From assembly GCF_030013205.1 (NCBI RefSeq), contig NZ_CP122648.1: 64,000 nt of DNA; one strand, written 5' to 3'. Position numbers and translations under genes: made by a program. The notes below the pieces were generated by a model that worked only from the letters and a program-made list of their open reading frames with translations, searched no databases and had not been told where the DNA came from. Positions 26,988 to 27,539 of this stretch are shown one piece after another; position 1 is the first letter of the stretch, and each line of letters starts with the position of its first letter. This DNA is from Escherichia coli. Its GTDB lineage: Bacteria; Pseudomonadota; Gammaproteobacteria; Enterobacterales; Enterobacteriaceae.

Positions 26988-27266
26988 TTAGTAGTAGTAA
27001 ATTTGTGGATAACAGTCCGGGAACCAGACGATTCCTTCTGGATCATCCCCCTGCATTACCCGATGACATTGGCGTCGATCATCTGCGCGACGGCGAAGCG
27101 TAGTATAGAGCCGCTTCCATTCATGATCGCCCGGTGTACTGTAGTTTACCCAACAATCCATTGAAGGGTGACGCCATTTACCTGTAAGTGTTGGGATCCC
27201 TGAATGATTATGTGGCTTCGCTTTACCATTACGATCCCTATCTTTACGCGTATTAAGCGTGGACAT
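26988..27266 (-). CDS. Hypothetical small protein (92 aa), basic and Cys/His-containing, function unknown
   Basis: ATG at 27266 preceded by AGGAG with 7-nt spacing; co-oriented with the toxin-antitoxin pair; I recognise no family. Confidence 0.45.
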   Translation of the reverse strand: MSTLNTRKDRDRNGKAKPHNHSGIPTLTGKWRHPSMDCWVNYSTPGDHEWKRLYTTLRRRADDRRQCHRVMQGDDPEGIVWFPDCYPQIYYY

Positions 27267-27317
27267 TTTTAGTCTCCTGTTAAGAGTTCTAAAAATGTGC
27301 TTCCTTAAAATAGTTCA

Positions 27318-27539
27318 TCATTTTCCCTTAATTCGCATAGCGTGCTTTTGCACGAATTTCCGATACGCGGGGACCATTATGATAGCGTCGATGCCCACAC
27401 ATCCAACAAGAACAAATACAGGGAGTACGAAAGCAAATACCTGATGCTTTTTTGCTTCCATCGCCTGCAGTGCGATAACGGCAGCGGATTTTTTTAATCG
27501 CGCCATATGATGGCGACGTTCAGCACGATTACGGGTCAT
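27318..27539 (-). CDS. Hypothetical small membrane protein (73 aa), function unknown
   Basis: ATG at 27539 preceded by AGGAG (7 nt), with that Shine-Dalgarno lying inside the imperfect hairpin of repeat copy 1; basic N-terminus then one hydrophobic helix VFAFVLPVFVLVGCVGIDAIIMV. Confidence 0.4.
   Translation of the reverse strand: MTRNRAERRHHMARLKKSAAVIALQAMEAKKHQVFAFVLPVFVLVGCVGIDAIIMVPAYRKFVQKHAMRIKGK

What the first reader, a model, noticed from the sequence alone, without database searches (positions are those of the whole stretch)
26988..27539. Two co-oriented small ORFs of unknown function (92 aa and 73 aa) immediately downstream of the toxin-antitoxin pair
Both have ATG starts with AGGAG at 7-nt spacing and are co-directional with the toxin-antitoxin genes, so they could be co-transcribed. 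The 73-aa product has a basic N-terminus and a single hydrophobic helix (small membrane protein). The 92-aa product is basic with several Cys/His and an unusual C-terminal YYY. I recognise neither. Small membrane proteins next to toxin-antitoxin loci can be additional toxins or immunity factors.
Basis: inference. Interest (0 to 1): 0.5.

Follow-up and report, generated by a model that had tools for sequence, protein, structure and literature searches.

The report
Frameshifted phage-type gene plus conserved partner
The two small reading frames are a conserved, mobile pair of uncharacterised genes also found in phages and plasmids. In this strain the first gene has lost one base, so its predicted "membrane protein" is an out-of-frame artefact, while the second gene is intact.

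Summary
Both ORFs exist at the stated coordinates on the minus strand, each with AGGAG 7 nt before its ATG. The 92-aa ORF (gene B) is a real gene. It has full-length homologues at 36-59% identity, a syntenic orthologue in another enterobacterial genus (dN/dS 0.25), and a conserved aromatic C-terminus.

The 73-aa "membrane protein" is not real. The window has an A7 run (27489-27495) where most E. coli have A8. The A8 frame gives a 70-aa basic, Cys/His-rich protein (gene A, RAERRHH…TPCxCSCWMCGH). That protein matches phage family phrog_4499 (E 1e-13), includes the T5.055-type orf055 of T5-like phage AKFV33, and is under purifying selection (omega 0.05-0.19). The window's frame shows omega 0.7-1.2 and matches no family.

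A and B lie next to each other in about ten different contexts: E. coli with and without the toxin-antitoxin pair, Edwardsiella, a Salmonella plasmid, a viral contig, and once in the order B-A. They are therefore their own cassette, not part of the toxin-antitoxin system.

The cassette is in 1269 of 5426 complete E. coli genomes. It is cut down by a 396-bp deletion in about 1190 more, and K-12 keeps only a short remnant of B's 3' end. Function is unknown. My best guess is a small zinc- and nucleic-acid-binding pair carried by mobile elements.

The parts
26988..27266 (-). Gene B (the 92-aa ORF). It is an intact member of an unnamed family of about 76-98 aa with the pattern MSxFNTRKDR..GKPKPHxH…WWxRLxTTRPRRAxDRxN…DPDG..W..P..Y(Y/F)(Y/W).
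   Evidence: Full HMMER scan found full-length homologues at 36-59% identity. A syntenic orthologue, P0045, lies in another genus. dN/dS is 0.25, with most differences at third codon positions (46, against 25 and 23). The ORF is 279 nt and intact in all 12 class-A E. coli loci sampled.
27328..27539 (-). Gene A, a frameshifted allele (pseudogene) in this window. The conserved product is a 70-aa Arg-rich, Cys/His-rich protein (RxRAERRHH…TPCxCSCWMCGH…QExRA).
   Evidence: The A8 alleles translate to a 70-aa protein that aligns without gaps to the L016 orthologue (70% identity). phrog_4499 matches the 70-aa form at E 1.4e-13 and matches nothing in the 73-aa form. Omega is 0.05-0.19 in the 70-aa frame and 0.7-1.2 in the 73-aa frame.
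27489..27495 (-). Homopolymer run: A7 on the coding strand (T7 on the + strand). This is the site of the 1-nt loss. Intact alleles have A8 (UTI89, ST131, Nissle) or G+A7 (L035/L036).
   Evidence: The run is not conserved in the other genus (L016 has CTAAAGAAAATC).
27545..27642 (.). Copy 1 of a 98-nt direct repeat. It contains a conserved palindrome (GCGGCA-nnn-TGCCGC inside AACTCCT…AGGAGTT) whose 3' arm holds gene A's Shine-Dalgarno sequence. On the minus strand the hairpin is followed by UUUU.
   Evidence: Repeat. Fold: -30.7 kcal/mol, z -2.6, AGGAG paired. The palindrome is conserved in the other genus and in the locus that lacks a toxin-antitoxin pair.
29362..29459 (.). Copy 2 of the 98-nt repeat (88% identical), just after the alpha/beta-hydrolase gene. 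The two copies bracket the hydrolase plus toxin-antitoxin module.
   Evidence: Most genomes have only one copy.
27624..27914 (-). NadS-type HTH (XRE) antitoxin. It is a neighbour, not part of the cassette.
   Evidence: NF041265 scores 60.4 bits against a cut-off of 60. RefSeq annotates it as nadS.
27915..28226 (-). RelE/ParE-family (HigB-2-like) toxin. It is a neighbour, not part of the cassette.
   Evidence: phrog_5869 at E 6e-27. PGAP names it a RelE/ParE family toxin in other genomes. The L016 orthologue has a weak PF06296 RelE hit.
26953..26979 (.). A 12-bp hairpin (GACCGGTTGGTG-cgg-CACTGACCGGTC) just after gene B's stop codon. It is conserved in all haplotypes, including K-12.
27093..27488 (.). 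A 396-bp segment missing from about 1190 E. coli genomes (class B). Its loss removes gene A after codon 17 and the first 58 codons of gene B.

Best explanation
The region holds a two-gene cassette that moves between genomes independently of the adjacent RelE/NadS toxin-antitoxin pair.

Gene A normally encodes a 70-aa protein. It has an arginine-rich N-terminal helix (RxRAERRHH) and an invariant cysteine cluster (C-x-C-S-C-x-M-C-G, followed by H in 14 of 15 homologues and by N in the T5-like one). Gene B encodes a basic protein of about 92-98 aa with a conserved RRA…DPDG…aromatic C-terminus.

In this window gene A has lost one A from an A8 run. From codon 18 on the ribosome therefore reads the +1 frame, which happens to stay open and hydrophobic. 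That produces the illusory 73-aa "membrane protein". Gene A is thus a pseudogene here, and gene B is intact.

Shown: the gene identities, the frameshift, purifying selection in the 70-aa and 92-aa frames, A-B adjacency in many contexts, independence from the toxin-antitoxin pair, and progressive loss across E. coli.

Inferred, with low confidence: A is a small zinc-binding, nucleic-acid-binding protein that works together with B as cargo of phages and other mobile elements, in regulation or in conflict between mobile elements and hosts. Gene A's ribosome-binding site is held in a conserved leader hairpin that may limit its translation.

The confidence of 0.85 applies to the structural part (what the two ORFs are). 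The functional inference alone deserves about 0.2.
For: Frameshift. The window and two other loci have A7 and nine loci have A8. The A8 frame gives a 70-aa protein.

Conservation of the 70-aa frame.
- It aligns without gaps at 70% identity to the syntenic gene in another genus (L016/L019).
- Homologues occur in Edwardsiella tarda (P0070) and in L022, L025, L028, L032, L033 and L038.
- phrog_4499 matches at E 1e-13 to 1e-15.
- 442 phage records match, and the listed ones are T5-like phages; AKFV33 orf055 is annotated as similar to a T5 hypothetical protein, YP_006883.1.
- Omega is 0.05-0.19 in that frame and 0.7-1.2 in the window's frame.
- The 73-aa product has no PHROG hit and no significant Pfam or NCBIfam hit.

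Gene B. The family alignment is. dN/dS is 0.25 with third-position bias.

Linkage of A and B. They are adjacent as A then B in E. coli, L016, L035/L036, E. tarda, L022, L025, L032 and L038, adjacent as B then A in L033/L034, and 1.6 kb apart in L028.

Independence from the toxin-antitoxin pair. L035 has A-B at the same fabY-fdhE locus with different neighbours and no toxin-antitoxin pair.

Decay in E. coli. 1269 of 5426 genomes have the full segment. About 1190 carry the 396-bp deletion. K-12 lacks window 27023-31282 and keeps only a degraded remnant of B's 3' end.
Against: There is no experimental evidence that either gene is expressed in any strain.

Function is not established.
- No Pfam, NCBIfam or PADLOC model matches, and the PDB sequence search found nothing.
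- The AlphaFold2 models are poor (pLDDT 56-59).

The A7 allele could in principle be a homopolymer sequencing error in some assemblies, because Nissle 1917 assemblies disagree. However, A7 was read directly in two window-type strains of unrelated origin (ETEC1748, pig faeces, Belgium; strain 631, a bivalve mollusc, Norway). The window region is also 100% identical over 1401 bp in eight ETEC genomes.

pS between genera is near saturation (0.55-0.75), so the omega values are approximate.

A and B each also occur alone: A in the T5-like phages sampled, and B in L023, L026 and L030.
Confidence: 0.85

Rival explanations
1. One reading: the 73-aa ORF is a genuine small membrane protein, possibly an extra toxin or immunity factor of the toxin-antitoxin locus.
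For: The ORF has ATG plus AGGAG and a hydrophobic stretch with Kyte-Doolittle mean 2.6 at residues 38-56. RefSeq annotates it as WP_001550354.1. The +1 frame is also open in L016, E. tarda, L022 and L028.
Against: In a systematic sample of 31 genomes, 26 (about 84%) have the A8-length allele, in which this frame is cut off from the start codon by a TAA. Omega in this frame is 0.7-1.2. The frame has a stop codon in L025 and several in the T5-like homologue, and it is not hydrophobic in E. tarda. No family matches it.
Confidence: 0.04
2. The A-run is a contingency (phase-variation) switch, or a slippage site, that lets the locus make either the 70-aa Cys-rich protein or the 73-aa membrane protein.
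For: Both A7 and A8 occur within each of the two E. coli sub-haplotypes. Assemblies of the same strain, Nissle 1917, differ. Both frames are open in E. coli. In the A8 allele the run lies as TT-A-AAA-AAA, which has the form of a slippery heptamer (read from the sequence).
Against: The run is absent from the orthologue in the other genus (AAGAAAA). In a third E. coli haplotype the run is only A7, preceded by G, and the gene stays in frame. The second frame shows no selection. An 8-nt run is short for efficient slippage (general knowledge). Recurrent 1-nt changes in a homopolymer are also what neutral decay or assembly error would produce.
Confidence: 0.06
3. A and B are accessory (third and fourth) components of the RelE/NadS toxin-antitoxin operon, for example regulators or modulators of the toxin.
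For: They have the same orientation, and no promoter-like site lies between the antitoxin and gene A. The toxin-antitoxin-A-B order is conserved in another genus. Gene B often sits just downstream of toxin-antitoxin-type genes elsewhere: TacA1 in L028, Fic in L030, HicB-like in L023, HipA in L026 and Xre_MbcA_ParS_C in L033.
Against: A-B occurs without any toxin-antitoxin pair at the same locus (L035), in E. tarda, on a Salmonella plasmid and on a viral contig. The toxin-antitoxin pair persists without A-B in about 1190 E. coli genomes. The neighbouring toxin-antitoxin families are all different, which suggests shared residence in variable islands rather than a specific partnership. A hairpin followed by UUUU lies between the antitoxin gene and gene A.
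Confidence: 0.1
4. Neither ORF is a gene; both are chance open frames in decaying intergenic DNA.
For: Both are lost or truncated in most E. coli. They are absent from all 100,044 species-representative genomes when searched with exact peptide words. Word-based protein searches found only Escherichia sequences, many of them frameshifted.
Against: The full HMMER scan and genomic-context look-ups found diverged full-length homologues with preserved frames in several genera, plasmids and phages. Omega is well below 1 in the 92-aa and 70-aa frames.
Confidence: 0.02

Closest known systems
PHROG family phrog_4499 (function unknown); T5-like phage early-region genes such as AKFV33 orf055, which is annotated as similar to a T5 hypothetical protein (YP_006883.1)
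   Same: The 70-aa (A8) form of gene A matches the profile over nearly its whole length (residues 3-67, E 1.4e-13). It shares the RRHH…TPCxCSCWMCG motif with the phage protein.
   Different: The window allele is frameshifted, so its product keeps only the first 17 residues of the family. The phage versions are longer (104 aa, with an acidic tail) and have CGNP in place of CGH. In the one T5-like phage examined (AKFV33) no gene B lies within 1.5 kb of gene A, and a protein search of the phage collection found B only in one 3.6-kb unverified contig.
Tripartite or accessory-gene toxin-antitoxin operons (toxin-antitoxin pair plus an extra regulator or chaperone)
   Same: The small co-oriented genes lie directly downstream of a RelE/HTH pair, and this order is conserved in a second genus.
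   Different: The cassette and the toxin-antitoxin pair each occur without the other. There is no similarity to SecB-type chaperones or to known third components; PADLOC, NCBIfam and Pfam give no match.
Small hydrophobic toxins of type I toxin-antitoxin systems (Hok, Ldr, TisB, Ibs)
   Same: Only the window's 73-aa reading has a single hydrophobic helix and a basic end.
   Different: That helix comes from an out-of-frame reading and is not conserved. The ORF is longer than typical type I toxins (general knowledge). No antisense RNA family was found in the window.
Arginine-rich-motif RNA-binding peptides (lambda and P22 N proteins) and small zinc-knuckle proteins
   Same: Gene A has an N-terminal R-x-R-A-E-R-R-H-H helix, pI 11, and four invariant cysteines followed by a nearly invariant histidine within about 10 residues.
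   Different: The resemblance rests on composition and recall only. No profile or structure match supports it.

Membership tests
phrog_4499 (gene A family) | Significant full-length match to the family profile | tested here: met
   The 70-aa A8 allele scores E 1.4e-13 and the L016 orthologue E 1.5e-15, covering profile positions 6-73 of 88. Note that the window's own 73-aa translation gives no hit.
phrog_4499 (gene A family) | Conserved motif RAERRHH … TPCxCSCWMCG(H/N) encoded intact in the window | tested here: not met
   The window keeps MTRNRAERRHHMARLKK and then shifts frame at the A7 run. The Cys motif is encoded in the DNA but out of frame. The window copy is therefore a pseudogene of this family.
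Gene B family (unnamed, about 76-98 aa) | Full-length alignment with the invariant residues M1, S2, D9, R10, G14, W50, R60 and an aromatic C-terminus | tested here: met
   Alignments A4 and A7. The window has L4 where F is nearly invariant.
Gene B family (unnamed, about 76-98 aa) | Purifying selection in the reading frame | tested here: met
   Omega is 0.25 against L016, with codon-position differences of 25/23/46.
A-B cassette | The two genes are adjacent in unrelated genomic contexts | tested here: met
   They are adjacent in E. coli (with and without the toxin-antitoxin pair), L016, E. tarda, L022, L025, L032 and L038, and in reversed order in L033/34. B is without A in L023, L026 and L030.
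Component of the RelE/NadS toxin-antitoxin system | Obligate co-occurrence with the toxin and antitoxin | tested here: not met
   The toxin-antitoxin pair without A-B is seen in class B genomes. A-B without the pair is seen in L035, L020, L032 and L038.
Small membrane toxin or immunity protein | Transmembrane helix conserved among homologues | tested here: not met
   The conserved frame has no hydrophobic segment (maximum KD19 0.77). The hydrophobic +1 frame has omega about 1 and contains stops in some homologues.
Phase-variable contingency gene | Homopolymer run inside the coding region with length variants among strains | tested here: met
   A7 and A8 are both found, in both sub-haplotypes.
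Phase-variable contingency gene | The run is maintained in orthologues, and both states give functional products | tested here: not met
   L016 has AAGAAAA, and L035 has G+A7 in frame. The second frame is unconstrained.
Known anti-phage defence systems (PADLOC v2) | Match to any defence-protein model | tested here: not met
   There are no hits for A, B or their homologues.
Zinc-binding protein (gene A) | Metal binding by the Cys4-His cluster | not testable with these tools
   Only the conservation of C41, C43, C45, C48 and H50 is known. The AlphaFold2 model has low confidence.

The most novel reading that the evidence does not exclude
A-B is an uncharacterised two-protein module of phages, plasmids and integrative elements. 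Gene A would be a zinc-binding, arginine-rich RNA- or DNA-binding protein and gene B its partner. The module would act in conflict between mobile elements and hosts, for example as an anti-defence factor or as a regulator that sits beside toxin-antitoxin and defence genes. This would explain why B so often lies directly downstream of toxin-antitoxin-type genes of different families, and why T5-like phages carry A among their early genes. The conserved leader palindrome that covers A's ribosome-binding site would be its control element.
Probability: 0.15. Interest if true: 0.6.

Novelty: new member of a known kind. Interest (0 to 1): 0.3.

Why it matters
The result corrects an annotation. The 73-aa "membrane protein" (RefSeq WP_001550354.1) is a frameshift allele of a conserved 70-aa gene, so transmembrane-based ideas about it are void.

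It also defines a conserved pair of small genes of unknown function, shared by E. coli lineages including UTI89, ST131 and Nissle 1917, and by Edwardsiella, a Salmonella plasmid and a viral contig. Gene A alone is in hundreds of phage records, the listed ones being T5-like phages. That gives a concrete small target for functional work.

It is an ordinary case of accessory-gene decay rather than a new kind of system.

Tried and rejected
- Pfam, NCBIfam, PHROG and PADLOC scans of the ORFs as written gave nothing significant for either ORF.
- Word-indexed protein searches returned only Escherichia sequences, many of them mosaics of different frames. That was the first hint of indels.
- Two scans of 100,044 species-representative genomes with exact peptide words gave no true relatives. 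The patterns were too strict, because relatives do exist.
- Rfam found no RNA family in or near the region.
- The PDB sequence search with family profiles found nothing.
- AlphaFold2 on 15-sequence alignments gave pLDDT 58.6 for A and 56.1 for B. I therefore ran no fold search, since matches would be meaningless.
- A profile-profile comparison of A against B shows the two are not paralogues.
- Literature searches for T5.055, phrog_4499, the RefSeq accessions and NadS/HigB found nothing relevant.
- Dual coding or programmed slippage was considered and rejected on the frame-openness and selection tests.
- The 98-nt repeat is not a dispersed repeat; there are 1-2 copies per genome, all at this locus.

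Full report
**Setting.** The window is Escherichia coli. The region lies between fdoHI-fdhE-yiiF-yiiE and fabY. All the genes of the finding are on the minus strand:
- RelE/ParE-like toxin, 28226..27915
- NadS-type HTH antitoxin, 27914..27624
- the 73-aa ORF, 27539..27318
- the 92-aa ORF, 27266..26988

Each small ORF has AGGAG, then 7 nt, then ATG. RefSeq annotates both as hypothetical proteins in a genome that is 100% identical over this stretch. The observation as written is therefore correct.

**First searches.** Neither ORF matches Pfam, NCBIfam, PHROGs or PADLOC. Word-indexed protein searches found only Escherichia sequences. The alignment of the 73-aa relatives looked odd. All share MTRNRAERRHHM(A/V)RLKK, and after that different sequences switch between three mutually exclusive peptide versions. 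That pattern is what frame changes produce.

**Population structure in 5426 complete E. coli genomes.**
- K-12 lacks window 27023-31282.
- 1269 genomes carry the whole segment (class A).
- About 1190 keep the toxin-antitoxin pair but lack 396 bp (27093-27488). That deletion removes gene A after codon 17 and the first 58 codons of the 92-aa ORF. What is left of that ORF has a stop codon and a 2-nt indel.
- The remaining genomes have no match to this segment.

**The homopolymer.** The window has A7 at 27489-27495 on the coding strand. Of the 12 class-A loci I read directly, 9 have A8 (UTI89, ST131, two Nissle assemblies and others) and 3 have A7. In a systematic sample of 31 class-A genomes, 26 have the A8-length allele. 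With A8 the ORF reads MTRNRAERRHHMVRLKKIRCRYRTAGDGSKKASGICFRTPCICSCWMCGHRRYHNGPRVSEIRAKARYAN, which is 70 aa.

**Which frame is real.** A full HMMER scan with the 92-aa ORF found full-length homologues at 36-59% identity.

The closest, P0045, lies in another enterobacterial genus, where core genes are 80-85% identical in DNA to E. coli. It sits at the same locus, in the order fabY, hydrolase, RelE, HTH, a 70-aa ORF, a 95-aa ORF, RHH+PIN, fdhE. That 70-aa ORF aligns without gaps to the E. coli A8 product at 70% identity.

The 70-aa form matches phrog_4499 at E 1e-13. It has homologues in Edwardsiella tarda and elsewhere. It also matches 442 phage records, and the listed ones are T5-like phages. 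AKFV33 orf055 is one of them; its annotation notes similarity to a T5 hypothetical protein (YP_006883.1), and it carries TPCICSCWMCGNP.

Between E. coli haplotypes and the other genus, omega after codon 18 is 0.05-0.19 in the 70-aa frame. In the window's 73-aa frame it is 0.7-1.2. In other homologues the +1 frame has a stop in L025, several stops in the phage homologue, and is not hydrophobic in E. tarda.

The 70-aa protein has no hydrophobic segment, whereas the 73-aa reading has one at residues 38-56. The "single hydrophobic helix" is therefore an artefact of reading a frameshifted allele.

The A8 run is not conserved. The other genus has AAGAAAA, and a third E. coli haplotype has G+A7 in frame. 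It is a mutational weak spot, not a conserved switch.

**The 92-aa ORF (gene B).** This is a genuine gene. It shares invariant residues and an aromatic C-terminus with its family; even YYY recurs in E. tarda. Omega against the orthologue is 0.25, with differences concentrated at third codon positions. It is intact in all 12 class-A loci sampled.

**A and B form a cassette.**
- They are adjacent, A then B, in E. coli with the toxin-antitoxin pair and in E. coli at the same locus without it (L035, where three unrelated genes take its place).
- The same order is found in the other genus, in E. tarda between unrelated core genes, on a Salmonella IncFIB plasmid, on two short contigs and on an IMG/VR viral contig.
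- They are adjacent in the order B then A in L033/34, and 1.6 kb apart on a Rep3 plasmid contig.
- Each also occurs alone: A in the T5-like phages sampled, and B next to HipA/AbiH, Fic plus type I restriction-modification, reverse-transcriptase genes, and a HicB-like phage region.
- The two are not paralogues.

The cassette and the toxin-antitoxin pair each exist without the other, so A-B is not part of that system. B is often near toxin-antitoxin-type genes of different families. Shared residence in variable islands explains this best, though a looser functional link cannot be excluded.

**Expression signals.** Between the antitoxin gene and gene A lies a conserved palindrome whose 3' arm contains gene A's AGGAG. 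It folds at -30.7 kcal/mol (z -2.6) and is followed by UUUU.

Its core, GCGGCA-nnn-TGCCGC, is kept in the other genus and in the locus without a toxin-antitoxin pair, always 19-33 nt before A's ATG. It therefore belongs to gene A's leader. No sigma-70-like site lies between the antitoxin gene and A in the window, so read-through from the toxin-antitoxin promoter is possible but untested.

The palindrome is part of a 98-nt direct repeat whose second copy (29362-29459) follows the hydrolase gene. The two copies bracket the hydrolase plus toxin-antitoxin module.

**Function.** Function is unknown. The PDB sequence search, PADLOC and Pfam give nothing. The AlphaFold2 models are unreliable (pLDDT 56-59), although A is predicted to have an N-terminal helix over its Arg-rich segment.

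My best inference, held with low confidence, is that A is a small zinc-binding, nucleic-acid-binding protein acting together with B as mobile-element cargo. It rests on three things: composition (pI 11, with four invariant Cys and a nearly invariant His within about 10 residues), presence among the early genes of a T5-like phage, and location in variable islands.

**Verdict.** The window holds one intact conserved gene (B) and one frameshifted pseudogene (A) of an uncharacterised mobile two-gene cassette that is decaying across E. coli. Interest is modest.

Noticed in passing
window 27545-27642 and 29362-29459: A 98-nt direct repeat (88% identical) brackets exactly the alpha/beta-hydrolase plus RelE/NadS module. 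Copy 2 contains a perfect 19-bp palindrome. Most E. coli genomes have only one copy. The layout suggests the module was inserted into, or can be excised from, gene A's leader by recombination between the copies.
   Followed up: partly
window 25890-26147 (yiiF) and 26351-26596 (yiiE); L016 5484-6106: In the other genus the position of yiiF/yiiE is occupied by an RHH antitoxin plus a PIN-domain (VapC-like) toxin. The RHH protein there is clearly similar to E. coli YiiF. E. coli has no PIN gene at this place, so YiiE and YiiF look like orphan VapB-type antitoxins. Their 5' regions are an 81% repeat (26191-26269 and 26630-26708).
   Followed up: partly
L003, L037 and L010 (Nissle 1917 assemblies): Assemblies of the same strain disagree on the length of gene A's run: A8 in CP022686 and CM187577, A7 in EcN_Sk (CP172017). 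This is either a homopolymer assembly error or real variation within the strain.
   Followed up: partly
L004 (ST131), L008, L014: PGAP annotates the RelE/ParE toxin gene next to the cassette as frameshifted in ST131 and two other strains. The toxin-antitoxin pair is therefore also decaying in some lineages.
   Followed up: no
window 26953-26979: A 12-bp hairpin just after gene B's stop codon is conserved in all haplotypes, including K-12, where the genes themselves are gone. The surrounding DNA is only about 76-79% identical between haplotypes.
   Followed up: partly
window 29532-31385 (minus strand): A 617-aa ORF lies between the hydrolase gene and fabY. It is absent from K-12, ST131 and the class B genomes. 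In the identical ETEC genome, RefSeq splits this stretch into a "transposase" and a partial hypothetical protein.
   Followed up: no
L023, L025, L033: An HNH_2 (PF13391) endonuclease gene lies within a few kb of gene B in three unrelated contigs. L023 and L033 also share a protein of about 252-254 aa at 54% identity; the L023 copy carries a DUF7706 Pfam hit. This may point to a larger common mobile element.
   Followed up: no
L038 (IMG/VR contig) 3719-7662: The A-B pair sits next to a 1080-aa SNF2-type helicase gene on the opposite strand, in a viral or satellite-like contig.
   Followed up: no
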